Source: a virus (lineage: Duplodnaviria; Caudoviricetes). From it: DNA of 64,000 nucleotides. A model generated the notes under the pieces. It ran no database searches. It was not told the origin of the DNA and saw only the letters and a program-made list of their open reading frames with translations. Of this stretch, positions 5,085-63,669 are shown one piece after another; within the stretch, counting starts at the first letter, position 1; every line of letters starts with the position of its first letter. The translations under genes and the position numbers were made by a program. The stretch lies in the IMG/VR virus record IMGVR_UViG_3300044630_000280, positions 2,131 to 66,130 of that record; one strand, given 5' to 3'.

Positions 5085-5130
5085 ATTGCATTGTAAGAAA
5101 ATGGTGTAGAATAAAATTTAGTATCAATAT

Positions 5131-5378
5131 GCATGAGGATTGGATTTGATTAAGGCAACTGGCGGGAACCACTAGCCCCAGTCCTCAGTCGTGTTGGTAC
5201 TAAGAAGCCTGAGAATTAGGAAGTTGTATTTGTTTACAGCAAAAAAGCGATGGGAATCCTTTTCCCTAGTTCTCAGACTTGTTAGACTAGCCCAGCCGGA
5301 GGTGGCGCATATAACACCGGCAGTGGGAGCTAAGCCCTTCCTTTCCGTATTTAGTAGTACTAGGCTTAGTGATCCCAC
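5131..5378 (+). ncRNA. Putative structured leader/ncRNA of four consecutive hairpins
   Basis: Stems 5134-5143/5178-5187, 5209-5220/5265-5276, 5295-5299/5317-5321, 5323-5336/5363-5378 with G-U pairs, in a 317-bp gap downstream of promoter-like TAGAAT (5107-5112). Confidence 0.6.
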
Positions 5379-5401
5379 ACCTATAATTAAAAGGAGCTGA
5401 T

Positions 5402-5803
5402 ATGGAAGATGAAGATATACCCGCCGAGAAATTGGCAAAGATTTATATTAAGATTCGTGATGCCAAATCAGAACTAGTGAAGAAGCATGACGCAGAAGTA
5501 GCCGAGTTAGATGCGCAGATGGATATGCTATCTAAGAAGATGCTAGAAATTTGCAAAGAAAACGGAGCTGATTCAATAAAAACAAGTGCAGGTACTATCA
5601 TGCGTAGTGTGTCCACAAGATACATGACGAACGACTGGGATAGCTTGTACTCGTTTATCAAAGAACATGATGCTATTGGTTTATTAGCTAAGTTTATACA
5701 CCAAGGCAACATGAAGCAGTTCTTAGAAGATAACCCTGATGTTTTTCCACCCGGCATGTTAGTTGACAGCCAATACAAAATCGTTGTGAGGAGAAGTAAA
5801 TAA
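5402..5803 (+). CDS. Hypothetical phage protein (coiled-coil N-terminus)
   Basis: Strong RBS AAGGAG; 133 aa; TAATG coupling to next gene. Confidence 0.8.
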   Translation: MEDEDIPAEKLAKIYIKIRDAKSELVKKHDAEVAELDAQMDMLSKKMLEICKENGADSIKTSAGTIMRSVSTRYMTNDWDSLYSFIKEHDAIGLLAKFIHQGNMKQFLEDNPDVFPPGMLVDSQYKIVVRRSK

Positions 5804-6705
5804 TGAGCGAAGTCTCTATTTTTAAAAACCGTGCTGTAACCGTAGGCGGTAAGAAAGCCCCTAGTGCCTTAACTCAATCGTTGATGAAGGCGAGTTCTGG
5901 TAGCCGTATCCCACGTATTTCCCCACGTAATGGTATGTTCAAGCGTATCGTTAATGGTGAAGATGTAGGTAAGCTAAAGAGTCCACTGCGTGTAGTTATT
6001 GTAGGTGTAGCACCTGCGACAGCACAGCGTACTTTCTATGCTAAGACATGGGATCCAAACGCAGAAGCAGCACCACCAGATTGCTGGACTAACGATGGTC
6101 AAAAGCCTGACGCTAGCATCAAAGCACCACAAGGTAAGAACTGCGAAACCTGCCCACAGAACGTAAAAGGTTCAGGTCAAGGTGATACTAAGGCTTGCCG
6201 TTTCAAACGTCGTATTGCTGTGATCTTGCCAGAAGAAGTTGAAGGCAATAACAGTGGTCAGATATATCAGTTTGAAGCTGCATCTAAGTCTATCTTTGGT
6301 AAGGGCAACAACCACGTCCACCCATTGAATGCTTATATCGACTACATCATTGCTAACGGTGAGGACATCGATGGTGTTGTTACTGAAATCTCTTTCAACG
6401 AGAACAATGACAACCAAAGCGTTCTGTTCCGTGCAGTTGACTTTGTATCTAGCTATCCTGAGTTAGCTGAAGTTGTGGCTAAGGCAGTTGAATCCTCAGA
6501 AGCACACAAAGCAGTTATGTTGACTGCCGGTGCTATCGACAAGGGTGAGACTGAAGTTCCTAAAGCTATCGCACCACCAGAGGTAGCCGATGAACCAGAA
6601 GAGCCAATAGCTGCACCTACTAAGCGAGTAAGTAAGAAAGCTGAAGTAAGTGAAGCACCAAAAGCTAACCTCGCAGATGTGGTTAGTGCATGGAGTGACG
6701 ACTAA
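5803..6705 (+). CDS. Putative ssDNA-binding/annealing protein
   Basis: Position in replication module, Cys cluster (DCW, CETCP, ACR), acidic C-terminal tail ending WSDD; function inferred. Confidence 0.55.
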   Translation: MSEVSIFKNRAVTVGGKKAPSALTQSLMKASSGSRIPRISPRNGMFKRIVNGEDVGKLKSPLRVVIVGVAPATAQRTFYAKTWDPNAEAAPPDCWTNDGQKPDASIKAPQGKNCETCPQNVKGSGQGDTKACRFKRRIAVILPEEVEGNNSGQIYQFEAASKSIFGKGNNHVHPLNAYIDYIIANGEDIDGVVTEISFNENNDNQSVLFRAVDFVSSYPELAEVVAKAVESSEAHKAVMLTAGAIDKGETEVPKAIAPPEVADEPEEPIAAPTKRVSKKAEVSEAPKANLADVVSAWSDD

Positions 6706-6730: not shown

Positions 6731-6752
6731 GGGGGGCTTGCCCCCCTTTTTT
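6731..6752 (+). terminator. Rho-independent terminator
   Basis: GGGGGG-CTTG-CCCCCC followed by TTTTTT. Confidence 0.85.
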
Positions 6753-6766
6753 ACCCCTATAAAAAC

Positions 6767-9628
6767 ATGGCTAACTTTGACCTATTAGATACAGTACTTG
6801 CTACCGAAGGGTGGTACGCTGTTGTGGGGATTAAGGAAAAGTCAGTACTACAAGAATTAGTTCAAACTCGTGAAGAAGTAGACGCATTAGTAGCTAAGTT
6901 TCTAGCAGCAGAACGTAACGTATATTTTGGATGTGCCAAGTACGAGACGGGCGAGAACCGGAAGAAAGACAATGCTAAGTACTTCAAAGCGTTCTGGATG
7001 GACATTGACTGTGGTGCGGATAAGGCAGTACCAGACCCCACGACTGGAAAGATTGACGGCTATATAGACCAAGCTACAGGCTTAGCCGAGCTACAAAGAT
7101 TTTGCAAGACCTTAGGATTACCAAGACCAACATTAGTTAACTCAGGACGTGGTATACACGCATACTGGGTGTTGGATGAAGTTATATCAAGAGAAGAATG
7201 GGAGCCTGTATCTAACCGATTACATGCACTGTGCGACATACACGACTTGTTGGCAGACCCATCGTGCTTTGAGGCTGCGCGTATCCTGCGTATACCTGAC
7301 ACGTTAAACTTTAAAGATTCACCCCCCTCTAATGTAGAGGCACTTTCTTTGGGTAAGACCACAAGTCTTGCTCAGATGCGCGAGATACTAGGTGTGGTGG
7401 ATGAGCCTAAAAAGCTTTTCACCCCTCGCCCATTACGTCAACGTAGTGCTTTGACCATGTCCCTTATGGGTAACCGTGTGTCGAAGTTTAAGACAATCAT
7501 GATTAAGTCAGCACAAGGTCAGGGTTGTCAGCAGTTAGTGCATTGCTATCAGAACCAAGATTCCATTAGCTACAACCTATGGCGCTCGGCTTTGTCTATT
7601 GCAGCTTTCTGCGAAGAAGGAGTTAACGCTGCTCACAAGATGTCTGAGAACTATCCGGGGTATGACCCTGAGGAAGTGGAGACTAAAGTCCATGACCTAC
7701 AGCGTAACGGTGGTCCTCATTTCTGTGAGACGTTTGAGAAGGAAAACCCTAGTGGTTGCGAAGGCTGTATACACAAGGGCAAGATCAAGACCCCTATATT
7801 ATTGGGTAAAGAGATTGCACGTGATGAGCCAACAGAAGAGGGGTATGTAGTTGAGGTGGAAGCGGAGGAAGAGGAAGAAGTTGAAGAGTATGTAATCCCT
7901 ACGTATCCGTTCCCATTCTACAGAGGTAAGGCAGGTGGTATATACAAGCAAGCTAAGGATGACGATGCTGAAGATGATCTAGTCTATGAGCATGACTTGT
8001 ATGTAGTTAAGCGTATGAGAGACCCAGAGTTGGGTGAGGTTGCTTTGATGCGCCTACACCTGCCACGTGACGGTGTTGCTGAGTTTACTGCGCCACTTGA
8101 CCACATCATTGCTAAGGATGACCTACGTAAAATCTTAGCTAAACGGGGTGTAGCAGGATACCCGAAACAAATGGAACTACTAGCACAGTTTGTACTGGCT
8201 AGCATAAAAGAACTACAGCTTGAAAGAAAGGCGGAGCTTATGAGAACACAGTTTGGCTGGGCAGATAATGACAGCAAGTTTATTATTGGAGATCGTGAGA
8301 TAACAGCAGAGGGTATATTCTACAGCCCACCATCATCGCAAACTGCGGCTATAGCACACCACATGACGCAAGCCGGTACATTAGAGGGGTGGAAAGAATG
8401 CTTTAACATGTATAATCGACCCGGACTAGAACCAAACGCGTTTGCTGCGCTGACAGGATTCGGCTCTCCGTTGTTGAAGTTTACAGGGTTGAGTGGCGCT
8501 ATTGTTAATGTGATCTTCAAGAAGTCAGGCTCAGGTAAATCTACTACCTTAGCAATGTGTAACAGCATTTATGGACACCCTAGTAGGTTGATGTCTATGC
8601 CTAGGGATACAATGAATGCACGTATGCAGAAGCTAGGCGTGATGAATAACCTGCCTTTCACGATGGACGAAGTCACTAACATGAAGTCAGACGAGTTCTC
8701 GGATTTAGCCTACGCTATGTCCCAAGGGAGAGGTAAGGATCGTCAGAAATCGTCCGCCAACGAGCTGCGCCTTAACCTCACTTCTTGGCAAAACTTATCC
8801 CTTTCCAGCGCTAATGCCAGCTTCTATGAGAAGTTAGGTTCCTTAAAGGCTACACCTGATGGTGAGCGTATGCGCTTTATCGAGTATGAGATTGGCTACA
8901 GCGATGCTATATCTACCGAAGAAGGCAAGCGTGTATTTGACCATGAGCTGTTACAGAACTACGGACATGCCGGTGATGTATACACACAATGGTTAGTAGC
9001 TAACAGAGAAGAAGCTATCCGTAGCCTCCTTGAAGTACAAGCTAAGATAGATAAAGAGTTACGTCTTACCCAGCGTGAGCGTTTCTGGTCAGCAGTTGTA
9101 GCATGTAATATCACAGGTGGCTTGATTGCTAAGTCATTAGGTTTAATTGACTACGACATGAAAGCAATTTACAAGTGGGCTACTACGATGGTACGTGACG
9201 TTCGTGAAGATACTGTTGCTCCAGTTGATGACGCTTCTAATATCATTGGTGACTACATGAACCGCCACTTGCGTAACATCCTAATCGTTAACGGCGAGAC
9301 AGATGCACGTACTAAGTTATCAGCTGCACCAATACAAGAACCCTATGGTGAGTTAGTTATACGGTATGAGCCAGATACTAAGAAGATGTTTATTGTATCT
9401 AAGCACTTTAGAGATGACTGCGTAGAACGTCAGGTTAACTACAAGGACACACTAAAGCAGCTAACAGCTCGTGGTGTATACCAAGGAAGCACTACACGTC
9501 GCATGACTACAGGCACTAAGATTAAAGGACCACCTGTTCATGTCATGCAGTTTAATTGTGATACACCTGACTTCATTAGCGTGGATGATTACCTAGATGC
9601 GAATTCAGGGGATACCGTATCAAATTAA
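6767..9628 (+). CDS. Primase-helicase (primase-like N-terminus, DUF927-like helicase C-terminus)
   Basis: WMDID, SGRGIHAYW, RILRIPDTLN primase motifs; HFC..F....CEGC; Walker A SGSGKST, Walker B TMDE. Confidence 0.85.
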   Translation: MANFDLLDTVLATEGWYAVVGIKEKSVLQELVQTREEVDALVAKFLAAERNVYFGCAKYETGENRKKDNAKYFKAFWMDIDCGADKAVPDPTTGKIDGYIDQATGLAELQRFCKTLGLPRPTLVNSGRGIHAYWVLDEVISREEWEPVSNRLHALCDIHDLLADPSCFEAARILRIPDTLNFKDSPPSNVEALSLGKTTSLAQMREILGVVDEPKKLFTPRPLRQRSALTMSLMGNRVSKFKTIMIKSAQGQGCQQLVHCYQNQDSISYNLWRSALSIAAFCEEGVNAAHKMSENYPGYDPEEVETKVHDLQRNGGPHFCETFEKENPSGCEGCIHKGKIKTPILLGKEIARDEPTEEGYVVEVEAEEEEEVEEYVIPTYPFPFYRGKAGGIYKQAKDDDAEDDLVYEHDLYVVKRMRDPELGEVALMRLHLPRDGVAEFTAPLDHIIAKDDLRKILAKRGVAGYPKQMELLAQFVLASIKELQLERKAELMRTQFGWADNDSKFIIGDREITAEGIFYSPPSSQTAAIAHHMTQAGTLEGWKECFNMYNRPGLEPNAFAALTGFGSPLLKFTGLSGAIVNVIFKKSGSGKSTTLAMCNSIYGHPSRLMSMPRDTMNARMQKLGVMNNLPFTMDEVTNMKSDEFSDLAYAMSQGRGKDRQKSSANELRLNLTSWQNLSLSSANASFYEKLGSLKATPDGERMRFIEYEIGYSDAISTEEGKRVFDHELLQNYGHAGDVYTQWLVANREEAIRSLLEVQAKIDKELRLTQRERFWSAVVACNITGGLIAKSLGLIDYDMKAIYKWATTMVRDVREDTVAPVDDASNIIGDYMNRHLRNILIVNGETDARTKLSAAPIQEPYGELVIRYEPDTKKMFIVSKHFRDDCVERQVNYKDTLKQLTARGVYQGSTTRRMTTGTKIKGPPVHVMQFNCDTPDFISVDDYLDANSGDTVSN

Positions 9629-9791
9629 TTGGAAAGCATTCAAGCCGGGGACTTCGTTCTTTATCCCTTGCTTGGATACCAAAGCTGCTGAGGAAGAAAT
9701 AACCTTTGTCGTGAACCGTCTACAGATGGACGTGGTTATCAAAGTTGTAATCGAGGATGGTGTGCAAGGTGTGCGCGTCTGGCGAGTTTAG
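9597..9791 (+). CDS. Hypothetical protein
   Basis: 64-aa ORF overlapping the primase end; SFFIPC...GVRVWRV. Confidence 0.7.
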   Translation: MRIQGIPYQINWKAFKPGTSFFIPCLDTKAAEEEITFVVNRLQMDVVIKVVIEDGVQGVRVWRV

Positions 9792-9806
9792 GTTATACTA
9801 TTTTTC

Positions 9807-9886
9807 AACGGCTTTTAGTTAGCTCCTTTTAGTCGTTTATTCTCCTTCACAGAGAACTTTGCCCCCGGTACGTCCGGGGGTTTTTT
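9807..9886 (+). ncRNA. Candidate anti-RBS small RNA (three hairpins)
   Basis: TATACT at 9794-9799; stem AACGGCT/AGTCGTT (9807-9813/9831-9837) with loop containing GTTAGCTCCTTTT; second hairpin TTCTC/GAGAA; terminator hairpin. Confidence 0.65.
9861..9886 (+). terminator. Rho-independent terminator at the convergence of the replication and structural blocks
   Basis: GCCCCCGG-TACGT-CCGGGGGT then T-tract. Confidence 0.85.
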
Positions 9887-12800
9887 ATTGGGACTCTTCG
9901 TCCAACAATTTTTCAGTACGATCTTGTAGGTCAAGCAAGTCTGCAAACTTCAACTCTGGTGTGATACCTCTAACGTTACCCTGAAGTAGTTTCAAGCGGC
10001 GTTCAAAAGCTCTTTCTATATCTGCAAACTCTATGGTTAGCTCAGGGTTAGGGTACATAGAATTAAACCGTACAGCTTTATCAATCATAGCTTGGAAGCG
10101 TTCATCTTTATCTAACTCAGCAGAACGTTCAATCTGTTTAATAATATCCGCACGTTGAGTTGTAATTTTTTGCTTCGCGTTGTTGTATGCAAATATATCT
10201 TTTTGGCGCTCGGCAAGACCTTTAGTCTTATACCCCAGTGCTTGCATTGCTAACTGCGCCTTAGTAAACTCAGCAGCTTCTTTAATAATTTGCAAGCTAC
10301 CAGTACGTGCGCCCTCTTGTGTATACCTAACGTCAGTCAATAGACCACGGAACATAGCAGGTGTCCACTTCTCAAATGCTTTAACCCAATCACCATTCTG
10401 GGCATCTTTAACACCCTTAGCCCACGTATCTACCAACCCTACTGAAGCACCGCCCCAATCAACCAGAGTATCAGCTACAAAGTTACCCCAATCTGAAGGT
10501 GGAGATTCATCGGTAAACCAGAAGTCCATAGATAAGCTAGAAGATATATCGTAGCCAGTTAAGTTATCTATAGTACCCGTCAACATCAGTTCACTTAGTG
10601 GAACCCCGCCAATCGTAGGTTCGCCAAACATTTCAGGCAGCCACACGTTCTCAAAGTACTTCTTAAAATTAGTCTGCCACAACTCCAACTCATCATCGTC
10701 ATCACCAGCCATACGAATCAGATTAATCATGCCTTGTATAATACCCATGACTACGCTATACATAAACGTTCCACGGATACCAGTAAGTAACGCAGTCATA
10801 CCTAACGTACCAGTAAACGCCTTTAATGCACCCATGCGTTGTTCTTTAGGTAGGCTGCTGAAAATCTCCATGAAGTTACGACATAAAAACTCTACGTTAA
10901 ATACTTGGAACTTACGATACTGAGCCGCTACTCTAACGGGTGTACTACGCATTAATTCAGGAGTATTAGCATCACTGTAGTCAAACAAACTTTCTTTGGT
11001 GATTTCAAGGGCTAAGTCAATAGACTTATTTACACGTTTGTTGTGATCTGGTTCGCTTTTAAACTTATCCATTGCGAGACTAAACGCAGACATAAACGTA
11101 ATCTCACGGGACATACGCTCGCCAAAATGGAACGGCGCAGTCATAAGAGTTTCTACAGTGCTTATTACTGGTGAATAATTCTCGCTAGCTGTTTTCTTTC
11201 TATTAGCTAAGTCCATAGTTCTAGTAGCATCTTGGACACCACTCTCACGTAAAGCCCTAAACGCTCTAACTAAGTCTGGGTTGTTACGTACTATTGATGA
11301 CGAACCAATAGATGGAGCTGTGTAGATAACGTTACCCTTAGCATCTTTACTAGTAACCCCCACCTGCTTATACGCATCTCTTGCCATCCGCATCATTTCA
11401 GCCGTGGTCTTACCGTAGCCAAAGTGTTTCCACATGACAGGCATTGCGTGGGTAATAACGCTGAACTGTTGGGCTACAGCCGATTTAATACTTGTCATCT
11501 GCCATATAAAGGCACTCTTAGTCGCTGTGCGGGCTATCTTTTCTGCTACGGTATCCATCTCTGGAGGGTTAAGTTCTTCCTCAGCACGTGCGGCTATACG
11601 GTTTATGAACATCTCCATCCGTGCTTTATTTGGGTTCTTCTCAATAGAAGCTCTAGCACCACTAATACCATTACGAATCTTAGGCGCATACTTAATATTA
11701 GCTAGTTGGTTTGCAAACCGGTTACCCATCACGATAAAGTTACGCATAGCATCTCTGCTGTAACCAGCTGTATTTTGACGTGGCATGAACTGCTTACGGA
11801 ATGTACCTTCAGGCATAGCTACCAAGTGCATGGTAAATATGTCTTTCTTTATTTCTTCTTTAGTAGCGGTATCCGTTGCAGTAATACCATCAACCATAGT
11901 GAATAGCTTCTTTAAAATCTCACTAGACTGCATAGCTTCTCTTTGTAGAGACTGCATATCTTGACCAAGCTTGATGTCACCATCTTTAATCATTTGGTCT
12001 TTTGTACGGCGATCACCTTTCATGTTCTGTTCTTTGACATACTCATCCATTAAGAAGTCACGCTCTTGCCCCGCCTCACGCATAATAAACTGCTTGTTCT
12101 CACCCTTACCTAACGTAGCCCAGTATTTACCATAACGCATAATAGGGAAGTAAGGAGATAACTTAGCACCAGTCTCGTAAAGTTTACGTACTTCATCCAT
12201 CAACATCTGCTTAGCAGGCCCAGTTATATTTGCATTTGCAATACGCTGGTTTAATAACCCACGATACAGGTTATAGTGATCGGTATAGAAGTCACGTGCG
12301 TCTATGTATACTTGTTTAGCTTTGTCAGACAAGCTATTCCACACAGCATTTAGTTTAGCGTCAGACTTATTAACTGCTGGGTCAACCTGCGCCATAGTGG
12401 ATACGTGCATTAGATCAGATACGCGTTGTGATTCTTTACCCTTAAGCTTAACCCAACCACGGACTATATCTTCTACTTTATGGATAGTACGCATACGGAA
12501 GGCGTTCTTTTCTTCGATGCCTTTTTGTATATCGTTAATTGAGTCTTCACCTACACCAATTTCTTTTGCTATACGGTATAAGCGGTTAGTTGTAGAAGCA
12601 CGAAGCATTACATCCAGTTTTTCTGGGTTCATGTACTTCCACTTAAGCTTAATGTAATCACTCCACAGGCTAGGATCACGTGCTACTTTGGATAAAGAAC
12701 CAAGAGCGTTAAGTCTTTCTTCTGCTGTTTTACCGGCTTTTAATTTATCTATAGCTGTATCAACATCGGTTTTCTTTGACTTAGCTTTTTGTCTTAGGGC

Positions 12801-17027: not shown

Positions 17028-17042
17028 ATCAGCTACCTTATA

Positions 17043-19637
17043 TTAATTACGTGGTCGTGTATAGTTAAATGACCCATCTGCATTTGGTGTTAAAGGCCCT
17101 GCTGCTGGTGGTGCTACTGGAGCTGGGTTTACCGCTGCGCCTCTAGCGGGAGGTAGTGGATTCTTAGCCTCGATCTCTCTTCTGATTCTATCTGAAACTA
17201 CTTTCCCTGCTGCCACTGGATCACGATTTTCTTTTTTAGCTAAGGCTTCAGCAGCTTGAATTTCTTTACGCCCCGGACCCATCATTGTTGCGCTAAGAAC
17301 TTCTTTATTTACTTTTTCATTTCTTTCTGCAACAGCTTTTATACGTGCCGAATCCGCATTTGCTGGGTCTACTACTGCTCCAGTTTCAGCACGTAGGGTA
17401 GCAGGAGCTGCATATACACCAGCAGCAGTTACTGTGGGTTGCATTGCATTAGCTTCTATTAATGCTTGGCGCATAGTAGAGGGGTTCTCAGGTTCACCTC
17501 TAAATACTTTCTCTGCATATAATATTTCAGCTTGCTGAATAACCTTGTCCTTGTTTGCGCCTTTAGCCACTATAAGTTCATTTTTAAGCGCTTGTATCTC
17601 AAGTTTATTTGCTGCATCCATTTGTTTGATAGATATCTCTGCACGGTGCTTTAACAACTCTTTATTAATATTGAAGTACTGTTCACCAGCTCTAGTCTTT
17701 AAGGATTCAGCTTCTTTTTCGTTACCTAATCTACGCTCGTACTCACTACGATTAACGGCACGACTAGCATCTTCCAAATCTTCCAACAATTTCTTACGTA
17801 GTTTTTTATCTTCTACATTAGCTTCAATTAGATTACCACCAGCATTAATAAACCCGTTCAAAGCTGGACCCGGAGTTCTACCCCAGTCAATTAAAAACTT
17901 AGTTAAGCGATCTTGTGCAGCTTCACGTGTTTCACCTTCAATTTTTGCTTTTCTTTCGGCTATAGCTTGCTGTTCCGCAATAGCTGGATTAATAAACCCT
18001 GCTGCTTTTCTTTCCGCATCTCTGCTAGCTATAATCTCGTTTACATTTTGTTCCGATTTAAGTTTTTCTGCATTGGCTTGAGCCTGCAGTGTTTGTTCAT
18101 ATGCTGCGTATGGATCTGCTGGTTTTACAGCTTGTGTGGCTATACCTTTTCTAGCCTCGTCAGCAACACTACCTTTTAAATCTGGGTATGGTGCATCTGT
18201 TACAGGCGGCTCTGCTGGGAATCTTGTATCCTCAGGGGTAACAGTCATCTCAGGTTTAATTACCGGAGTCGTTGGAGATTCTTTTGCTAACGCACCTAAG
18301 ATACCCTTTTTAGTGTCCTTTAAATCTTTAACTTCTTTATCTTTCTCTTTGTCTTTTTCTGGGTCATCGACTTCTTTACCTTCCTTGAAGGCAACAGCAC
18401 CACCAGCAGCCATACCCTTGATCCCGCTACGTAAGGCATTACGGCGAGCTAGTTCTGCATCAACATCTTCTCCTGTAGCAGGGTCTGTGCTTTGGTCTTT
18501 ATCTTTTTGTTCTAACTGCCCATCAGATAATTTACGCAGCATACTTGGTAGCTTAGCAGGTGGAACACCCGTAGCAATACCACCACCAGCCATTTCTTTA
18601 ACTGCACCCCCGTTAGCACCGAATGCAGACTTAGCTGTTTTATATAGTTCTAAGCCAGCACCAATACTACCCATTGCTTGTGATGCAGCTGATGGTTGCG
18701 CTTGGTACATCTGGGTAGTAGAAGCTTGCATAGGCAAACCACGTAACATGTTCGATAGAACACCCAACTGCATGAGCGGGTATTGCTGTGACGTAGCGTA
18801 ATCTTGAACAATCTGGTTGAGGCGGTTTTGTTCAAAGTCTTGTTGTGTTTTACCAACAGCTAACTGTTGACCCATTAAACCTAGTTCTTGACCGTACTGC
18901 TGCTGTCCTAATGCACCCAAAGTCTGAGCGCCTTGTAGCCCTTGACCTAAACCCTGTAAGTTTAAGTTAGCACCGAACTGCTGAGCTTGTTGAGCGTTTT
19001 GATATGCGTTTTGCATACCTTTACCGTATATGTCGCTTTGTTGCATTGCAAGATTACGTTGACGCTCTGCTTCTACAAGTGCAGAACCTGAACCACCAAA
19101 CGCACCTTGCTGTATAGCTTTAGCTTGGTTCATCTGACCTTGCATAGCTGATTGACGTGCAGCTTCACGTAGCTCAGGGGCTACTGCGCCTTCCATATAA
19201 GGAGACATGTAGGCTTGCATTGCATAAGGATTTGTAGCTTGTTGTGCGTACTGATTACCAGCTTGCATTGAACCTAAGCCAGCCATCCCTGCCATTTGGG
19301 AGCCGTATTGGGTTTGTCCGGGCAATTGGTAGTTTTGGATTCCCCGCATTGCCTGCGATTGTAGGGGGGTAAAGCCTGCAACGGTCTCACCGGAACCACC
19401 ACGCGCTTGATCGTATTGTGCATAAGATTGATATGGTTTAAACCCACGGACATTACCTTTAGCATCAAGGTCATATATTTGTTTCTCGGTCGCCTCTGTC
19501 ATCTTTGTTACATACGGCTCCAAGTACTCAGGGATATTGGATGTGTATGTAGTGCCTGTAGAGGTAGTGCCACCACCACCGCCACCGAGGTTAAACGTAA
19601 ACCACTCAGGGTTAAATAGCCATTTTAGGATGTTCAT
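17043..19637 (-). CDS. Internal virion/DNA ejection (pilot-like) protein
   Basis: Short leader then GGGGGG; Gln/Ala/Gly-rich with GAFGGS motif; position before the giant ejection gene. Confidence 0.65.
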   Translation of the reverse strand: MNILKWLFNPEWFTFNLGGGGGGTTSTGTTYTSNIPEYLEPYVTKMTEATEKQIYDLDAKGNVRGFKPYQSYAQYDQARGGSGETVAGFTPLQSQAMRGIQNYQLPGQTQYGSQMAGMAGLGSMQAGNQYAQQATNPYAMQAYMSPYMEGAVAPELREAARQSAMQGQMNQAKAIQQGAFGGSGSALVEAERQRNLAMQQSDIYGKGMQNAYQNAQQAQQFGANLNLQGLGQGLQGAQTLGALGQQQYGQELGLMGQQLAVGKTQQDFEQNRLNQIVQDYATSQQYPLMQLGVLSNMLRGLPMQASTTQMYQAQPSAASQAMGSIGAGLELYKTAKSAFGANGGAVKEMAGGGIATGVPPAKLPSMLRKLSDGQLEQKDKDQSTDPATGEDVDAELARRNALRSGIKGMAAGGAVAFKEGKEVDDPEKDKEKDKEVKDLKDTKKGILGALAKESPTTPVIKPEMTVTPEDTRFPAEPPVTDAPYPDLKGSVADEARKGIATQAVKPADPYAAYEQTLQAQANAEKLKSEQNVNEIIASRDAERKAAGFINPAIAEQQAIAERKAKIEGETREAAQDRLTKFLIDWGRTPGPALNGFINAGGNLIEANVEDKKLRKKLLEDLEDASRAVNRSEYERRLGNEKEAESLKTRAGEQYFNINKELLKHRAEISIKQMDAANKLEIQALKNELIVAKGANKDKVIQQAEILYAEKVFRGEPENPSTMRQALIEANAMQPTVTAAGVYAAPATLRAETGAVVDPANADSARIKAVAERNEKVNKEVLSATMMGPGRKEIQAAEALAKKENRDPVAAGKVVSDRIRREIEAKNPLPPARGAAVNPAPVAPPAAGPLTPNADGSFNYTRPRN

Positions 19638-55669: not shown

Positions 55670-55684
55670 TTACAAGGAGCTACT

Positions 55685-55849
55685 ATGAAAGCATCAGATA
55701 TTCTCATGCTAACCGGCACTATATTGCATGTCGTGTTCTTAGTATCAGTTATATTTTTTCCAATGCCATTATTCCCTGCCGCATTGCTTACTGTGTTAGG
55801 CATAGCGTATCAGGGCTATGGTGTCTTTATGTCCTACGAAGGGAGCTAA
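55685..55849 (+). CDS. Small membrane protein
   Basis: AAGGAG RBS; two hydrophobic segments. Confidence 0.65.
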   Translation: MKASDILMLTGTILHVVFLVSVIFFPMPLFPAALLTVLGIAYQGYGVFMSYEGS

Positions 55850-56017: not shown

Positions 56018-56179
56018 ATGGGCGAACTATTAAACAAAGCATTCATCGATGAGCTAACCGATGAGGAAGAAGCGGTACTCGCAAGGTTAGAGCAAGAGTG
56101 GCTGCAAAGATGTGCACTCGCAGAGTCAACGGAATGGCATGACCCTAAACCTATTATCAAAGCAACATCACTTAACTAG
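56018..56179 (+). CDS. 53-aa hypothetical protein (not in ORF track)
   Basis: GAGGAGG RBS; fills the gap exactly. Confidence 0.55.
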   Translation: MGELLNKAFIDELTDEEEAVLARLEQEWLQRCALAESTEWHDPKPIIKATSLN

Positions 56180-56187
56180 GAGCTAAC

Positions 56188-56478
56188 ATGGGCTGGAGAT
56201 ATGGATTAAAGCGTGAGATGTGGGGCAACACAATCGAGGGTTACAAGGTGATAGAAGTGTTTGACTTTGACCGCCCTGCATTACAGCGTTCATGGTGTGA
56301 GACCGCACCGTATAGCGACACCGAAGATGAGATGTTGACTGTGCTTGACCGCATGAAGAAAGACATCCAACGTTTCAATATTGACATCAGCACACCCGAT
56401 GTGGTCGAGGACTTAGAGCGTAGGCTGTGGTGGTGGGACGATGCACCTGCCAAGATATACCCAAGCGAGGAGGTATGA
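56188..56478 (+). CDS. Hypothetical early protein
   Basis: AGGAGCTAAC RBS. Confidence 0.7.
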   Translation: MGWRYGLKREMWGNTIEGYKVIEVFDFDRPALQRSWCETAPYSDTEDEMLTVLDRMKKDIQRFNIDISTPDVVEDLERRLWWWDDAPAKIYPSEEV

Positions 56479-57009: not shown

Positions 57010-57228
57010 ATGACGTGGATAAATGTAGATGTAGATATGAGCGAGTTCAACGATGAAGAACTTGTTATTGAAATGCAAAGACGTGGCTATGTAGTGCAGG
57101 ACAGCGACGAGCCACAAGATAAGGAAGAACTGAACCGTATCTACGAAGCGTTGTATCTAGGTAAGCAGGAGGAAGCGATGCGACGCATGAAAGAATATGT
57201 TTGCAATAAGGTAGGTAGGCTGTTATAA
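57010..57228 (+). CDS. Hypothetical early protein
   Basis: GGGAG RBS; DVDMSEFNDEELV.E..RRG. Confidence 0.65.
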   Translation: MTWINVDVDMSEFNDEELVIEMQRRGYVVQDSDEPQDKEELNRIYEALYLGKQEEAMRRMKEYVCNKVGRLL

Positions 57229-57281
57229 TGTAAGACGATGTAAGAAGTATATAAACCACAACAACACAACAAGGAGCTAAC

Positions 57282-58349
57282 ATGGCTGAAATAAATTTCG
57301 GTAAGACCGTCACACTCAAACAAGCTGCGAAGATTATCGTAGCATCCCCAAAGAATCGTTACTTACTACGTGGTGAGCCGGGCATTGGCAAGTCAAGTCT
57401 AACCGCAACCCTCAAAGAATTATTACCTCGACATCACGTTGCATATATGGACGTGCCCAACATGGACTTAGGTGACATCGCCATGCCCGTAGTGGACAAG
57501 GACACCAAGACTACACGTTACTATCCCAATGCACGATTCATGTTTCACACAGGCGAGCCAGTCATTGTCAATCTTGACGAGTTCACCAAAGGCGCAGAGC
57601 CAATCAAGAACATGCTGCACCCACTACTCGAAGCACACAATCCTAGACTAGGTGACGTGCCAGTACATAACGAGTCAATCATATTCCTTACAGGTAACTT
57701 AGCAACCGATGGTGTCGGTGACAATCTCAAAGCACACAGTCTTAACCGTATCATCCCATTGAACATCGAGAAGCCGAGCTTTGAAGAGTGGGCAGAGTGG
57801 GCTATGAATCATGGCATTGCACCAGAAATCTTAGCGTTCGGTCGTATGATGCCGCAGATATTTGCAAGCTATACCGATGCAAGCCAGAAAGAAAATCCTT
57901 ACATCTACAATCCGCTTAAACCTACACAAGCATACGTATCCCCTCGTTCACTCGAACGTGCAAGTAACATCGTCAACATCAGACAGCAGCTAGATAACGA
58001 AAGCGTAATAGCTGCGCTAACAGGAGCGATAGGCGAATCAGCAGCACGTGACTTCCAAGCCTACCTCGAATACTCAGACCAACTACCTACATGGGAGTCG
58101 ACAATCAAAGACCCTAAGGGTGCGCTTGTACCTAAGTCCGCAGGTGCAGCAGCAATCGTCGTGTTCGGTGCAATCCAGAAGGTAGACAAGACTACGATCG
58201 AGCCATTCATGCAGTACTTAGAACGCTTCACCGAAGAATGGCAAGCAGCGTTCGCAATCAACATCGCTAAGTCCAAGACCAAGCAACCCGTTGCATTCAG
58301 TTGCAGAAAGTTTAGCGAGTGGGTAGCTAAGAACGAGGACTTACTGTGA
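57282..58349 (+). CDS. MoxR-like AAA+ ATPase
   Basis: Walker A GEPGIGKS, Walker B VNLDE, TGN sensor, SPRS. Confidence 0.88.
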   Translation: MAEINFGKTVTLKQAAKIIVASPKNRYLLRGEPGIGKSSLTATLKELLPRHHVAYMDVPNMDLGDIAMPVVDKDTKTTRYYPNARFMFHTGEPVIVNLDEFTKGAEPIKNMLHPLLEAHNPRLGDVPVHNESIIFLTGNLATDGVGDNLKAHSLNRIIPLNIEKPSFEEWAEWAMNHGIAPEILAFGRMMPQIFASYTDASQKENPYIYNPLKPTQAYVSPRSLERASNIVNIRQQLDNESVIAALTGAIGESAARDFQAYLEYSDQLPTWESTIKDPKGALVPKSAGAAAIVVFGAIQKVDKTTIEPFMQYLERFTEEWQAAFAINIAKSKTKQPVAFSCRKFSEWVAKNEDLL

Positions 58350-58576
58350 GAGAGCCTAGATATTTCATAGCATGGGTGAGTGAGGACAATGTAGGTAAAC
58401 CCAACATGCCATATCTAGCAGCACGTAAGGAGTATATGTACCGAGTATTCAGGGAGGACTTTGACAACAGCAATGCTGCACCTATTACAGAAGCAATGAC
58501 GTATGAGGAAGCAGAAGCAAAGAGAAAAGAAATCTTATTACTAACTAAAGGTAAGGAGCTAGCATGGATAGCATAG
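58346..58576 (+). CDS. Hypothetical protein
   Basis: GTGA overlap with ATPase stop. Confidence 0.55.
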   Translation: MREPRYFIAWVSEDNVGKPNMPYLAARKEYMYRVFREDFDNSNAAPITEAMTYEEAEAKRKEILLLTKGKELAWIA

Positions 58577-59757
58577 ACAGGGAAGAACGTAAGGTCAAGA
58601 AGGTCAAGATCAGTCTAATGCGTGAGCCTAAGTTTGCATTGTGGCAGGGCGCAATGATGATCGGCAAGACTAGCATCGAGGACGATATACCTACGGCTGC
58701 AACCAACGGTCGTGATGAGTTCTATGGGCGGGAGTTTGTTAAGGACTTGACCGAGAAGGAACTGGCATTCGTTGTTCTTCACGAATGTATGCACAAAATT
58801 TACCGGCACTTAACTACGTGGCGAAAGCTGTACGACGAGGACAAATACCTAGCTAACGCAGCTTGTGACTACGTTATTAACCTTGAGCTATTCGACATGG
58901 ACAAGGAAGGCAAGTATATCGCTAGACCTATTAAGAACGGCAAGCCGATAGGTTTACTTGATGAGAAGTATCGTGGCATGAACACCAAGCAAGTCTATGA
59001 CCTACTTAAGCAGCAGCAAGAAGAAGGCGGGGACTGTGGTTGTAACTTTGACGAGCATGACTGGGACGGTGCTGAGAACATGACCGATGCCGAGAAGAAA
59101 GAGTTGTACAAGGAAGTCGAGCAAGCTATACGGCAAGGCGCAATGACACACCAGAAACTTAATGGTAGTGGCGCAGGTGGTATGAGTCGTGAGCTAGGTG
59201 AGTTGCTTGAACCCAAAGTTAATTGGCGTGAGCAGCTACGTGAGTATGTTAAATCAATCTGTGCAGGAAAGGACGCATCATCATGGAGACGAGTAAACCG
59301 CAGGTACATTGGGCAAGACGTGTATATGCCCACGTTAATCAGCGAACGAGTAGGACACATAGTAATCGGGATAGATACAAGTGGGTCTATCGGGGGCAAG
59401 GAATTAAACGACTTCCTTTCTGAAGTCAAGGGTGTAGCTGAGGAAGTATCACCTGAGAAGGTTGACTTGTTGTATTGGGACGGGGAGGTAGCAGGACATG
59501 AAATGTACGATGCTGCAACGGTGGGTTCGATCATTGATTCTACTAAGCCAAAGGGTGGCGGTGGCACTTCACCTTCTTGTGTCAGCCAATATCTTAAAGA
59601 TAAGGGAATCAAACCAGAATGCACAATCATGCTCACCGATGGTTATGTTGGTTCGGATTGGGGTAGCGATTGGGAATCGCCAGTCCTCTGGGTTATCGTG
59701 GGTGGCAACACTGCCACAGCACCTAACGGCAAAACTATTCACATCAAGGGGAACTAA
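58564..59757 (+). CDS. Metallopeptidase plus VWA domain protein (DUF2201-like)
   Basis: TAATNG, LHECMH (HEXXH), NAACDYVIN; MIDAS DTSGS, GGGT, LTDG. Confidence 0.88.
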   Translation: MDSIDREERKVKKVKISLMREPKFALWQGAMMIGKTSIEDDIPTAATNGRDEFYGREFVKDLTEKELAFVVLHECMHKIYRHLTTWRKLYDEDKYLANAACDYVINLELFDMDKEGKYIARPIKNGKPIGLLDEKYRGMNTKQVYDLLKQQQEEGGDCGCNFDEHDWDGAENMTDAEKKELYKEVEQAIRQGAMTHQKLNGSGAGGMSRELGELLEPKVNWREQLREYVKSICAGKDASSWRRVNRRYIGQDVYMPTLISERVGHIVIGIDTSGSIGGKELNDFLSEVKGVAEEVSPEKVDLLYWDGEVAGHEMYDAATVGSIIDSTKPKGGGGTSPSCVSQYLKDKGIKPECTIMLTDGYVGSDWGSDWESPVLWVIVGGNTATAPNGKTIHIKGN

Positions 59758-63340: not shown

Positions 63341-63354
63341 CCAAAGGAGCTAAT

Positions 63355-63669
63355 ATGTTAACCCAGCAACAACAGATATTTTTACAAGGCGTAGCTAATC
63401 ACGGAGTAGAAGAGATCGACAAGGTAGTACGAGTACTGCGCCTAGCAACACCAGAGAAGTTCTTCCATGAGTTTAAGCGTAATGATGGTCGTGTCATCCC
63501 TGATGCCGCTATGAAAGAGCGTAAGTTCTTTGACCAACCTGCATCCCTTAGTGCAAAGAATGGTGACTATGCTAGCCACGAGGTAGACATAGTTGATGGG
63601 CATGAGCGTTCCGCAATACACGAAGCACGTTCAATCAAAATCTTACGTAGAGGGATGGGATACAAATGA
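63355..63669 (+). CDS. Hypothetical protein
   Basis: AAAGGAGCTAA RBS. Confidence 0.7.
   Translation: MLTQQQQIFLQGVANHGVEEIDKVVRVLRLATPEKFFHEFKRNDGRVIPDAAMKERKFFDQPASLSAKNGDYASHEVDIVDGHERSAIHEARSIKILRRGMGYK

What the first reader, a model, noticed from the sequence alone, without database searches (positions are those of the whole stretch)
9794..9886. Candidate phage sRNA whose loop is antisense to a shared extended RBS of many early genes (multi-target translational shut-off)
Seen: after the replication operon come TATACT (9794-9799), hairpin AACGGCT/AGTCGTT with an exposed loop TTTAGTTAGCTCCTTTT, a second hairpin and a terminator. The loop segment 9818-9828 is the exact reverse complement of AAGGAGCTAAC. 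That sequence precedes the AAA+ ATPase start (57271-57281, 11/11) and 56188 (56178-56187, 10 nt). Near-copies precede 63355 (AAAGGAGCTAA), 58564 (AAGGAGCTAGC, one G-U), 55685 (AAGGAGCTA), 55852 (GGGAGCTAA), 60913 (GAGCTAAC), 62173 (GGAGCT) and 5402 (TAAAAGGAGCTGAT, 14 nt with G-U). A second segment, TTATTCTCCTT (9837-9847), matches AGGGAGAATAA before 61290. Late RBSs inspected (capsid AAGGAGATTA, portal AAGGACTAAT, scaffold AGGAGACAAC, 41476 AGGAGTAAAA) lack GGAGCT. Complementarity extends past the SD core (CTAAC), so it is not just generic anti-SD similarity. Inference: a middle-expressed sRNA silences a barcoded class of early mRNAs, acting as an RNA-based early-to-late switch.
Basis: partly seen in the sequence, partly recalled or inferred. 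Interest (0 to 1): 0.92.

Follow-up and report, generated by a model that had tools for sequence, protein, structure and literature searches.

The report
Conserved phage small RNA masking RBSs
A short structured RNA encoded just after a freshwater phage's replication genes carries two stretches that mirror the ribosome-binding sites of nearby and other early genes and change in step with them in related phages, so it most likely switches their translation off.

Summary
Window 9792-9886 is the gap between the converging early (+) and late (-) gene blocks of a 66-kb phage. It holds a -10-like box, a hairpin with loop GTTAGCTCCTT, a second CTCC module and a one-way terminator.

The element sits at the same place in 50 relatives. 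The hairpin stem co-varies, the loop core is invariant in the window's clade, and no Rfam family reaches threshold.

The best-supported targets are the two genes of the bicistronic operon 4 kb upstream, 5402-5803 and 5803-6705. The loop pairs with the first start region over 16 bp and module 2 with the second over about 20 bp. Both pairings change in step across relatives (GCTAA/TTAGC, GCAA/TTGC, GCGA/TCGC). A primase control shows no such effect.

The "many early genes" regulon is real here: 13 of 40 early against 1 of 54 late start regions. It is confined to the window's subclade. Co-variation fails in one clade and in three further genomes.

No transcript evidence was obtained. Verdict: a new family of phage trans-acting anti-RBS small RNA, in the manner of P1 c4. 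The early-to-late switch is unproven.

The parts
9794..9799 (+). -10-like box TATACT, 3-6 nt after the stop codon of the 64-aa gene. It is the putative promoter of the small RNA. A weak -35-like GTGCGC lies at 9771-9776 inside the coding sequence.
   Evidence: Of 46 unique relatives, 40 keep TAnnnT at this offset, 44 match TATAAT at 4 or more of 6 positions, and 25 read TATACT. The -35 matches at 4 or more of 6 in only 8 of 46, and TGn is present in 15 of 46. The sigma-70 consensus scan finds no promoter here.
9807..9837 (+). Hairpin 1 (module 1). The stem is 9807-9813 / 9831-9837 and the loop is 9814-9830. The seed GTTAGCTCCTT is 9818-9828. Positions 9818-9833 pair with 5386-5401.
   Evidence: Fold. 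The loop core is invariant in the 19-sequence alignment. Eight of 10 stem pairs carry double changes; 82.7% of cells pair against 59.7% in shuffles (0 of 500). The 16-bp duplex with the 5402 start region has 13 Watson-Crick and 3 G.U pairs.
9834..9856 (+). Module 2, the second anti-SD stretch (TTCTCCTT core, partly inside hairpin 2 at 9840-9856). It is complementary to 5781-5802, the start region of gene 5803-6705, and to GGAGAA-type RBSs.
   Evidence: RNAduplex gives -19.7 kcal/mol and about 20 bp with the 5803 start region. Own against cross-class energy is -15.9 against -12.4 to -12.6, with 0 of 20000 and 0 of 5000 permutations as low. At least 8 Watson-Crick pairs occur in 4 of 40 early and 1 of 54 late start regions.
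9861..9886 (+). Intrinsic terminator: an 8-bp GC stem plus a T run. The T run is on the + strand only. The stop codon of the converging 2380-aa gene is at 9885-9887.
   Evidence: It is present in 41 of 41 unique elements of relatives that have an element. L060-L062 have none.
5386..5404 (+). Start region of gene 5402-5803 (133 aa, weakly Mu Gam/Gp157-like). This is the conserved target of module 1.
   Evidence: The gene's own element gives a run of 9 or more Watson-Crick pairs in 22 of 40 unique loci, against 2.7% of 1102 cross-class pairs.
5781..5805 (+). Start region of gene 5803-6705 (300 aa; four conserved Cys and an acidic tail). This is the target of module 2.
6731..6752 (+). Terminator that closes the 5402-6705 bicistronic operon. 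It puts the targets and the small RNA on different transcripts.
57271..57284 (+). RBS and start codon of the AAA+ ATPase gene, an 11 of 11 complement of the loop. It is a lineage-specific extra target.
   Evidence: Orthologues keep GGAGCTAA down to 81% amino-acid identity and lose it at 74% or below.
56178..56190 (+). RBS and start codon of gene 56188-56478, a 10-nt complement.
63343..63357 (+). RBS and start codon of gene 63355-63669, an 11-nt complement.
58553..58566 (+). RBS and start codon of the DUF2201/VWA gene 58564-59757, a 9-nt complement.
55674..55687 (+). RBS and start codon of gene 55685-55849, a 9-nt complement.
9597..9791 (+). Conserved 64-aa gene whose last codons overlap the putative -35/spacer of the small RNA promoter. 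Its function is unknown.
   Evidence: AlphaFold2 gives pLDDT 88.5. No PDB fold match has E below 0.2.

Best explanation
Window 9794-9886 encodes a small non-coding RNA of about 75-90 nt on the + strand. It is made either from its own -10-type promoter just after the 64-aa gene or as the 3' end of the primase transcript. It ends at the 9861-9886 terminator.

The RNA has two antisense modules. The loop of hairpin 1 (seed GUUAGCUCCUU) pairs with the Shine-Dalgarno sequence plus spacer of gene 5402. The stretch 9834-9856 pairs with the start region of gene 5803. These two genes form a separately terminated bicistronic operon 4 kb upstream, so the RNA acts in trans. Pairing covers the SD and runs up to the start codon, so the expected effect is a block of 30S binding, that is, translational repression.

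In this phage and its close relatives, the two commonest early RBS extensions (GGAGCU... and GGAGAA...) match module 1 and module 2. The regulon has apparently spread to about a dozen early genes, including the AAA+ ATPase and its VWA partner.

Shown here: the anatomy, the conservation, the stem co-variation, the seed/RBS co-variation and the early-gene bias. Inferred: transcription, trans action, repression and timing.
For: (1) Position and anatomy are conserved. A long converging minus-strand ORF ends 230-320 nt after the primase gene in 43 of 47 relatives examined. The gap in 41 relatives plus the window shows a -10 box, a hairpin, CTCC motif(s) and a GC hairpin with T run.

(2) It behaves as an RNA structure.
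- GTTAGCTCCTT is invariant in the 19-sequence alignment of the window's clade, while the stems differ.
- On a model-fitted alignment of 11 sequences, 8 of 10 stem pairs have double changes. 82.7% of cells pair against 59.7 +/- 3.6% in shuffles (0 of 500). The covariation score is 0.664 against 0.229, and 0.04-0.32 when partners are slid.
- Stems beat flank shuffles (at most 5 of 300 as stable) in 13 of 17 class-A loci.
- 33 of 210 stem pairs are G.U. The + strand folds better in 16 of 25 loci and the minus strand in 8 of 25.
- The terminator T run is on the + strand only.

(3) The seed and the target co-vary.
- Loop/RBS pairs are GTTAGC/GCTAA(C), GTTGC/GCAAC and RRTCGC/GCGAYY in three groups.
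- On the primase tree these lie along one path, TTAGC to TTGC to TCGC, mirrored by GCTAA to GCAA to GCGA.
- The 5' flank also switches together: TAAAAGGAG/CTCCTTTTA against CGAAGGAG/CTCCTTCG.
- The longest Watson-Crick run between the 5402-orthologue start region and its own element is 9 or more in 22 of 40 unique loci, against 30 of 1102 cross-class pairs (2.7%). Duplex energy is -17.5 against -13.7 kcal/mol (0 of 5000 permutations as low).
- The 5803 orthologue gives -15.9 against -12.6 (0 of 5000).
- The primase start-region control gives -7.3 against -7.6 (1711 of 5000).

(4) It acts in trans. The terminator at 6731-6746 plus T run separates the target operon from the primase-64-aa-sRNA unit.

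(5) The regulon in this genome.
- At least 8 Watson-Crick pairs to either module occur in 13 of 40 early and 1 of 54 late start regions.
- After GGAG, early RBSs continue with CT in 8 and AA in 7 of 25. Late RBSs continue with CT in 0 and AA in 3 of 15.
- With the loop of relative G001, 0 of 40 early start regions of G000 match. Conversely G001 has 3 of 46 at 8 or more pairs with its own loop and 0 with G000's.
- Orthologues of the ATPase, VWA and 60032 genes keep GGAGCTA(A/G) down to about 78-81% protein identity.

(6) The architecture is sRNA-like. Full-length but sub-threshold Rfam hits fall on the + strand to sRNAs with C/U-rich seeds: anti-hemB at 24.7 bits and PsrR1 at 23.6 bits.
Against: - There is no transcript evidence. 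The only certain RNA run (X17) has contigs over 9311-9753 only, at low depth, and does not reach the element.
- The -35 is weak, and the consensus scan finds no sigma-70 promoter.
- Co-variation is not universal. In the clade of 12 loci with the CTAACAATGTTAG-type element (L029-L037, L047, L051, L058, L045), none has more than 6 Watson-Crick pairs to the 5402-orthologue RBS. In G006, G007 and G008 the loop differs (GATAGC, AGAAGC, GAAAGC) but the RBS does not follow, with 7, 8 and 7 pairs. L012, L016 and L017 in the window's own clade have a diverged RBS under an unchanged loop.
- The number of independent compensatory events is small, roughly 4-6, and the permutation tests ignore phylogeny.
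- A loose energy scan of the whole RNA against all start regions does not separate it from shuffles that keep the two CTCCTT cores. 59 of 200 shuffles give as many hits at -16 kcal/mol or below, and 37 of 200 at -18 or below.
- The broad regulon is absent outside the subclade. In 5 of 9 other genomes a late 302-305-aa gene carries AAGGAGCT(A).
- Parts of both pairing regions lie in hairpin stems.
- Gene starts come from my own heuristic caller.
Confidence: 0.62

Rival explanations
1. Non-specific anti-SD RNA. The conserved CUCCUU motifs mimic the 3' end of 16S rRNA and soak up or mask any strong SD, phage or host. The flanks carry no target information, and the flank matches are by-products of common RBS contexts.
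For: CTCC(T) is the only feature common to all element classes, including the clade without extended complementarity. The energy scan does not beat core-preserving shuffles. G006-G008 loops do not follow the RBS.
Against: Flank complementarity is class-matched: the matrix diagonal is 9-10 against 5.8-7.1 off the diagonal. Three of three changed flank positions between classes A and B are compensatory. The real flank ranks 2-4 of 1024 in G000. The loop flank GTTAG is invariant in the 19-sequence alignment of the window's clade, whose primase proteins are 59-97% identical to the window's.
Confidence: 0.15
2. Cis-acting 3'-UTR element only. The hairpins stabilise or terminate the primase-64-aa mRNA, or bind a protein such as the adjacent 64-aa protein. 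There is no separate sRNA and no pairing with start regions.
For: The element lies directly after a gene and ends in a terminator. The promoter is unproven. The 64-aa protein is tightly linked to it and conserved.
Against: This does not explain why the loop is the complement of RBSs and changes with them. It also does not explain the conserved TAnnnT box in non-coding sequence. The 64-aa fold has no significant match.
Confidence: 0.1
3. DNA-level element: a single-strand DNA hairpin used as a priming or origin signal next to the primase gene, or a duplex protein-binding site shared in inverted orientation with the RBS regions.
For: It is adjacent to the primase gene. Relatives carry a highly repeated DNA palindrome containing CTAAC/GTTAG in their early regions, and that palindrome forms 'hairpin 1' in one element class.
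Against: G.T pairs make up 33 of 210 stem pairs, up to 3 in one 10-bp stem. A T run follows the GC hairpin on one strand only. The shared sequence always includes the SD and lies at fixed spacing to start codons. The palindrome is absent from the window's genome.
Confidence: 0.05
4. Chance resemblance of a terminator-proximal spacer to common RBSs.
For: SD-like hexamers are frequent: AAGGAG occurs 18 times on the + strand of the window.
Against: The conservation, the stem co-variation and the class-matched complementarity argue against chance. Two of the 4 sense-strand CTCCTT copies in 20 kb fall inside these 93 nt.
Confidence: 0.02

Closest known systems
c4 antisense RNA of phages P1 and P7 (Citron & Schuster 1990, as described in review PMC12197685; passages seen)
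   Same: It is a phage-encoded small RNA acting in trans. Its complementary sequences are presented in loops and pair with phage mRNA around a ribosome-binding site to block translation. That it has two separate target-matching segments is my recollection.
   Different: There is no sequence or structure similarity. No C4-type family appears among the 13 Rfam matches at E up to 10. c4 controls the antirepressor/immunity region of a temperate phage. Here the targets are replication-module and other early genes of an uncultivated freshwater phage, and the RNA gene lies downstream of its targets at a converging-operon junction.
T4 RegA translational repressor and RegB nuclease (review PMC3014915; passages seen)
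   Same: The logic is the same. A phage product competes with the ribosome at the start regions of many (about 30) pre-late mRNAs, or inactivates early mRNAs at their SD.
   Different: RegA and RegB are proteins that recognise A/U-rich start regions or GGAG. Here the specificity would come from RNA-RNA base pairing.
Cis-antisense phage RNAs (P22 sar, lambda OOP; named in the reference list of PMC12197685; mechanisms recalled)
   Same: They are short phage RNAs that pair with phage mRNAs.
   Different: Those are transcribed from the opposite strand of their target and are fully complementary. This element lies 4-50 kb from its targets and shares only 9-20 nt with them.
Bacterial trans-acting sRNAs with C/U-rich anti-SD seeds: PsrR1 (RF02701), anti-hemB (RF02837), Betaproteobacteria toxic sRNA (RF02278)
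   Same: They have the same overall build, a 5' hairpin or single strand with CUCC motifs followed by a terminator. The window gives full-length alignments on the + strand.
   Different: Scores are far below the gathering thresholds: 24.7 against 49.5, 23.6 against 42, and 16.5 against 50. This is a resemblance of type, not homology.
3'-UTR-derived sRNAs with an internal promoter inside the upstream coding sequence (for example MicL and DapZ; recalled, no call)
   Same: The promoter -35/spacer lies inside the upstream gene, the sRNA shares the mRNA's terminator, and the seed is conserved.
   Different: Those are host-encoded and Hfq-dependent. The promoter here is not shown.

Membership tests
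Rfam anti-hemB (RF02837) | Covariance-model score at or above the gathering threshold (49.5 bits) | tested here: not met
   24.7 bits, E = 4.6e-4, at 9805-9888 on the + strand. There is no hit at the gathering threshold.
Rfam PsrR1 (RF02701) | Score at or above 42 bits | tested here: not met
   23.6 bits, E = 0.013.
C4 antisense RNA family of P1/P7-like phages | Match to the family's covariance model | tested here: not met
   It is not among the 13 families listed at E up to 10 for 9740-9920. That Rfam holds such a family is my recollection.
Trans-encoded base-pairing sRNA (functional class) | Intrinsic terminator at the 3' end | tested here: met
   An 8-bp GC stem plus T run on the + strand. 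It is conserved in all 41 unique elements.
Trans-encoded base-pairing sRNA (functional class) | Own promoter or defined 5' end | tested here: inconclusive
   A -10 box is conserved at 4 or more of 6 positions in 44 of 46 unique relatives. The -35 reaches 4 or more of 6 in only 8 of 46, and the consensus scan finds none.
Trans-encoded base-pairing sRNA (functional class) | Conserved single-stranded seed | tested here: met
   GTTAGCTCCTT is invariant in the 19-sequence alignment and is placed in the loop of a co-varying stem.
Trans-encoded base-pairing sRNA (functional class) | Complementarity to target start regions that is kept by compensatory change | tested here: met
   Met in two of the three main clades. 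Not met in the third clade or in G006-G008.
Trans-encoded base-pairing sRNA (functional class) | Discrete transcript and measurable repression of targets | not testable with these tools
   The RNA runs found do not cover the element.

The most novel reading that the evidence does not exclude
The phage uses an RNA-programmed 'RBS barcode'. Early genes are tagged by the 3-5 nt that follow GGAG (CUAAC or AAU...). A two-module sRNA, expressed with or after the replication genes, reads these tags and shuts off the whole tagged class while untagged late genes keep translating. Because the tag and the seed are both only a few nucleotides, the regulon can grow, shrink or be re-coded quickly. The re-coded seeds (TTAGC, TTGC, TCGC) and the subclade-specific spread to the ATPase/VWA genes would show this.
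Probability: 0.3. Interest if true: 0.85.

Novelty: new variant of a known kind. Interest (0 to 1): 0.66.

Why it matters
Base-pairing RNAs that regulate a phage's own genes are known mainly from a few temperate coliphages (the review PMC12197685 lists c4, sar and OOP; passages seen). In virulent model phages such as T4, translational shut-off of pre-late genes is the work of proteins (RegA, RegB; PMC3014915).

Here a whole family of uncultivated freshwater phages keeps a small structured RNA at one fixed genome position. I examined 50 elements. Its seeds mirror the ribosome-binding sites of replication-module genes and have been re-coded together with them.

If confirmed, this would be a new, comparatively well-supported RNA family. 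It has no Rfam entry. It would also be a natural example of seed and RBS co-evolution that can be tested directly with reporters.

In the window's lineage it may be an RNA counterpart of RegA acting on about a dozen early genes. It also warns annotators that the spacer after the SD can carry regulatory information.

My three literature searches found no description of such an element. Journals outside the held library were not searched.

Tried and rejected
Nearest known phages. There is no DNA match of 9000-11000 in the phage collection. The primase has only distant protein relatives there, the best at 31.8%. The capsid's nearest isolates are Synechococcus phage MinM2 and Planktothrix phage Pag-Yong1 at 72.5%. 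These did not appear in the primase search.

Host. A scan of genome contigs with the primase found nothing, so the host stays unknown.

Transcription. The look-up of sequencing runs and read laying on X17, X15, X16 and X18 were run. Only X17 is certain RNA. Its two contigs cover 9311-9753 at 90-99% likeness and low depth. The other three are probably DNA. Nothing can be said about a small transcript, its ends or its strand.

Rfam. There is no hit at the gathering threshold.

Structure-blind alignment. RNAalifold on a MAFFT alignment of the hairpin failed: it found 3 spurious pairs because the gaps were misplaced. I replaced it with a covariance-model alignment. That alignment leans towards the structure, so the slid-partner control is quoted.

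Energy scan. RNAduplex of the whole RNA against all start regions gives early -17.4 against late -14.0 kcal/mol (Mann-Whitney p = 1e-4). Shuffles that preserve the CTCCTT cores do as well in 59 and 37 of 200, so I do not count this as support.

Promoter for gene 5402. A conserved TATAAT-like box 5-8 nt before its SD was considered. I dropped it because the transcription start would fall inside the SD.

Small ORF on the minus strand. An 11-codon frame in the window is not kept in relatives (read). Rejected.

Function of the neighbours.
- Gene 5402 is only weakly Mu Gam/Gp157-like and below the Pfam cut-offs. It matches phrog_13900.
- Gene 5803 has no Pfam, NCBIfam or PDB sequence hit. Its AlphaFold2 model has pLDDT 69.6 and no fold match with E below 0.04.
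- The 64-aa protein has a confident model (pLDDT 88.5) but no fold match with E below 0.2.

Weak minus-strand hits of model R1 upstream of the 5402 orthologues (E = 0.57-0.95) are a conserved leader hairpin with a loosely similar loop. They are not significant.
Full report
WHAT IS THERE

The window is bases 2131-66130 of a single-contig virus record of 66,130 bases with 44% G+C. Genes on the + strand run from about 54,000 through the record's end and on to 9,791. These are the small early genes, an AAA+ ATPase with its VWA partner, family-A DNA polymerase, an SNF2 helicase and a DUF927 primase-helicase. Genes on the - strand fill 9,885-53,900, with capsid, portal, tail genes and a 2380-aa polyvalent protein.

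The finding (9794-9886) is therefore the gap where the two blocks converge. It lies between a 64-aa gene (9597-9791) that overlaps the end of the primase gene and the stop codon of the 2380-aa gene at 9885-9887.

RNAfold gives three hairpins on the + strand: 9807-9837, 9840-9856 and 9861-9881. The energy is -26.8 kcal/mol, z = -3.55, and 0 of 200 shuffles fold as well. The last hairpin is followed by a T run on the + strand only. No Rfam family reaches its gathering score. No tRNA is present.

IS IT MORE THAN CHANCE IN THIS GENOME?

I used my own heuristic gene calls: strand by block, start chosen by SD score and neighbour distance.

- GGAGCT lies within 16 nt of the start in 8 of 41 early and 0 of 54 late genes (Fisher p = 8e-4).
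- At least 8 contiguous Watson-Crick pairs to the hairpin-1 loop are found in 9 of 40 early and 0 of 54 late start regions. Six have 9 or more pairs.
- The exact 9-mer GGAGCTAAC occurs 3 times in the window: two RBSs and, on the other strand, the loop.
- CTCCTT occurs only 4 times on the sense strand of the + blocks, twice inside the element.
- I replaced the 5 nt in front of CTCCTT by each of the 1024 possibilities. The real flank ties for rank 2-4, with 5 early hits against a mean of 0.20.
- The second CTCC stretch (module 2, 9834-9856) matches GGAGAA-type RBSs. Four of 40 early and 1 of 54 late start regions have 8 or more pairs. Either module matches 13 of 40 early against 1 of 54 late.
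- After GGAG, early RBSs continue with CT (8) or AA (7) in 15 of 25 cases. Late RBSs continue with CT in 0 and AA in 3 of 15.

One check did not separate the RNA from controls. A loose RNAduplex scan of the whole RNA against all start regions did no better than shuffles that keep the two cores (59 and 37 of 200 shuffles did as well). The signal therefore lies in contiguous seed matches, not in total duplex energy.

RELATIVES

The phage collection holds no close relative. IMG/VR holds 69 loci that encode relatives of the primase, at 97% to 36% identity.

In 43 of 47 loci with enough flank, a long minus-strand ORF ends 230-320 nt after the primase gene. The last 130 nt before it in 41 relatives show the same build as the window. 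From 5' to 3' it has:
- the stop codon of a conserved gene of exactly 64 codons;
- a -10-like hexamer;
- a hairpin;
- one or two CTCC motifs;
- a GC hairpin with a T run.

Three loci at 36% identity (L060-L062) have no such element.

The -10 box keeps A2 and T6 in 40 of 46 unique sequences and matches TATAAT at 4 or more of 6 positions in 44 of 46. TATACT itself is found in 25 of 46, at 3-6 nt after the stop codon. The -35 is poor, reaching 4 or more of 6 in only 8 of 46.

In the window's clade the 11 nt GTTAGCTCCTT are invariant while the flanking stem differs (19-sequence alignment; primase identity to the window 59-97%). With the core forced open, the stems are more stable than flank shuffles (at most 5 of 300 as stable) in 13 of 17 class-A loci.

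On a covariance-model alignment of 11 sequences (10 distinct), 8 of 10 pairs show changes on both sides. 82.7% of cells pair, against 59.7 +/- 3.6% in shuffles (0 of 500). The covariation score is 0.664 against 0.229, and 0.04-0.32 with slid partners. The alignment was fitted to the structure, which favours it.

G.U pairs make up 33 of 210 stem pairs. The + strand folds better in 16 of 25 loci and the minus strand in 8 of 25. Together with the one-sided T run, this points to an RNA made from the + strand.

THE CONSERVED TARGETS

All 69 loci keep the gene order 133-aa gene, 300-aa gene, primase. In the window these are 5402-5803, 5803-6705 and 6767-9628. A strong terminator (6731-6746 plus T run) follows the 300-aa gene. 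The first two genes therefore form their own operon, and the element lies on another transcript.

The RBS of the 133-aa gene tracks the loop:
- GGAGCTAA(C/T/G) with GTTAGCTCC (window clade, L049, G009);
- GGAGCAAC with GTTGCTCC (L038, L039, L042);
- GGAGCGA(T/C)(T/C) with (A/G)(A/G)TCGCTCC (L025-L028, L035, L050).

Between the first and third state, all three changed flank positions are complementary changes. On a quick primase tree the three states lie along one path in one clade, with the first state also in the window's clade.

The 5' flank switches too: TAAAAGGAG with CTCCTTTTA in the window's nearest relatives, and (A)CGAAGGAG with CTCCTTCG(T) in L006-L010, L013 and L019. In the window the duplex is 16 bp (13 Watson-Crick and 3 G.U), joining 5386-5401 with 9818-9833.

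Numerically, the own-locus longest Watson-Crick run is 9 or more in 22 of 40 unique loci, against 30 of 1102 cross-class pairs. Duplex energy is -17.5 against -13.7 kcal/mol, with 0 of 5000 permutations as low.

The 300-aa gene's start region pairs with module 2. In the window this is about 20 bp at -19.7 kcal/mol, joining 5781-5802 with 9834-9856. This pairing also changes in step. Examples are GGAGAG with CTCTCC plus ATCAC with GTGGT in L018/L019, TCACCG with CGGTGA in L015, and CCGCCAAG with CTTGGYGG in class B. Own against cross-class energy is -15.9 against -12.6, with 0 of 5000 permutations as low.

The primase start region serves as a negative control and shows nothing: -7.3 against -7.6, with 1711 of 5000 permutations as low.

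WHERE THE PATTERN FAILS

- In the clade of L029-L037, L047, L051, L058 and L045 (12 loci), the RBS reads GGAGTGTTAG (GGAGGGTTAG in L045, GGAGCATTAG in L036). In 11 of the 12 (all but L045) the element has TAGACT, TAAACT or TACACT as its -10 box. In 10 of the 12 (all but L045 and L051) it continues with the palindrome CTAAC-N3-GTTAG (N4 in L029) and a degenerate CTCC stretch. None of the 12 exceeds 6 Watson-Crick pairs.
- In three further complete genomes the loop is GATAGC, AGAAGC or GAAAGC, but the RBS does not follow, giving 7, 8 and 7 pairs.
- L012, L016 and L017 have a changed RBS under the unchanged loop.

The independent compensatory events number only about 4-6. My permutation tests do not correct for relatedness.

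HOW WIDE IS THE REGULON?

I fetched nine other complete or large relatives whole. The rank of the real flank among the 1024 variants is 4 (G000), 20 (G005), 33 (G001), 91, 92, 116 and 164, with no hit at all in G007 and G008.

In 66 loci around the ATPase gene, GGAGCTA-type RBSs number 4, 5, 6, 4, 3, 1 and 3 in the seven closest (ATPase 74-99% identical). They occur in only 2 of the other 59. Orthologues of the ATPase, VWA and 60032 genes keep GGAGCTA(A/G) down to about 78-81% identity and lose it at 74% or below.

In 5 of 9 other genomes one late gene of 302-305 aa has AAGGAGCT(A).

The broad early-gene 'barcode' is therefore real in the window's subclade and not a family trait. One reading is that many targets hold the loop fixed in that clade, while lineages with few targets re-code seed and RBS together. 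This is inference.

MECHANISM PROPOSED

A small RNA of about 75-90 nt ends at the 9861-9886 terminator. It starts either about 7 nt after the TATACT box or by processing of the primase-64-aa transcript. It pairs in trans with start regions.

Module 1 would first contact its target through the open loop. Full pairing needs partial opening of the stems.

Because the duplexes cover the SD and reach the start codon, the expected outcome is a block of initiation, possibly followed by mRNA decay. The position of the RNA gene at the end of the replication unit would make repression follow expression of the replication genes.

Transcription, repression and timing are all inferred. The metatranscriptome data found do not reach the element.

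COMPARISON WITH WHAT IS KNOWN

The closest mechanistic precedent is the c4 RNA of P1/P7 (review PMC12197685, passages). The closest functional precedent for a multi-gene translational shut-off is T4 RegA, which acts on about 30 mRNAs, together with RegB (review PMC3014915, passages).

Sub-threshold, full-length Rfam alignments to anti-hemB, PsrR1 and the Betaproteobacteria toxic sRNA show a shared build only.

Three full-text searches gave no description of this element. I file it as a new variant of a known kind.

VERDICT

My confidence in each layer is:
- about 0.9 that this is a functional, conserved, structured + strand RNA element;
- about 0.65-0.7 that it base-pairs with the 5402 and 5803 start regions;
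- about 0.55 that it is an independently transcribed sRNA;
- about 0.3 that it acts as a general early-gene shut-off switch.

Noticed in passing
relatives G001, G002, G004-G009 (loci L143-L155, L164-L179); absent from the window's genome and G010: The 13-14-bp palindrome CTAACA-N-TGTTAG occurs 11-21 times per genome, almost all in the early region and in both orientations. Only 33 of 108 copies could start an ORF at the central NTG. One copy sits right after the -10 box of the element in the L029/L058 class. It may be an operator of an unknown regulator. Its half-site CTAAC is the spacer of the window's GGAGCTAAC RBSs. Unexplained.
   Followed up: partly
window 9597-9791 (+): This is a conserved protein of exactly 64 aa in 38 aligned relatives. 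W12, F15, S20, F22, P24, C25, R41, G58, R60, W62 and R63 are invariant. The AlphaFold2 model is confident (pLDDT 88.5, beta-alpha-beta-beta). No PDB fold match has E below 0.2. It is always directly upstream of the small RNA.
   Followed up: partly
window 5803-6705 (+): The 300-aa target protein has four invariant cysteines (C94, C114, C117, C132) and a disordered tail. There is no family or fold match. An SSB-like role is a guess only.
   Followed up: partly
window 6731-6769: A strong terminator is followed by ACCCCTATAAAAAC and the primase ATG, with no SD. Relatives likewise lack an SD there. The mRNA may be leaderless or use SD-independent initiation.
   Followed up: no
window 5085-5401, especially 5325-5333: The structured 317-nt leader before gene 5402 holds another near-copy of the target motif (GGGAGCTAA). 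It also holds a conserved hairpin whose loop loosely resembles the target. Model R1 gives weak minus-strand hits at the matching place in L003, L004, L016 and L017.
   Followed up: partly
window 17028-17050 (-): The RBS of the 2380-aa polyvalent protein gene (AAGGTAGCTGAT-ATG) is the 5402 RBS (AAGGAGCTGAT-ATG) with one extra T.
   Followed up: no
window 57201-57229 (+): This is the best sigma-70-like promoter of the early region: TTGCAA, a 17-nt spacer, then TATAAT with TG. It lies just upstream of the ATPase gene, whose RBS is the 11 of 11 match.
   Followed up: no
public runs X1-X14: The 1-kb stretch around the element is held at half or more of its sampled words by 8 DNA runs from 6 studies. 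They are labelled lake, river, freshwater or aquatic metagenomes, and one may be the source sample. A loose end in X16 shows a relative with GGAAGTTAGCTCCTTCC.
   Followed up: no
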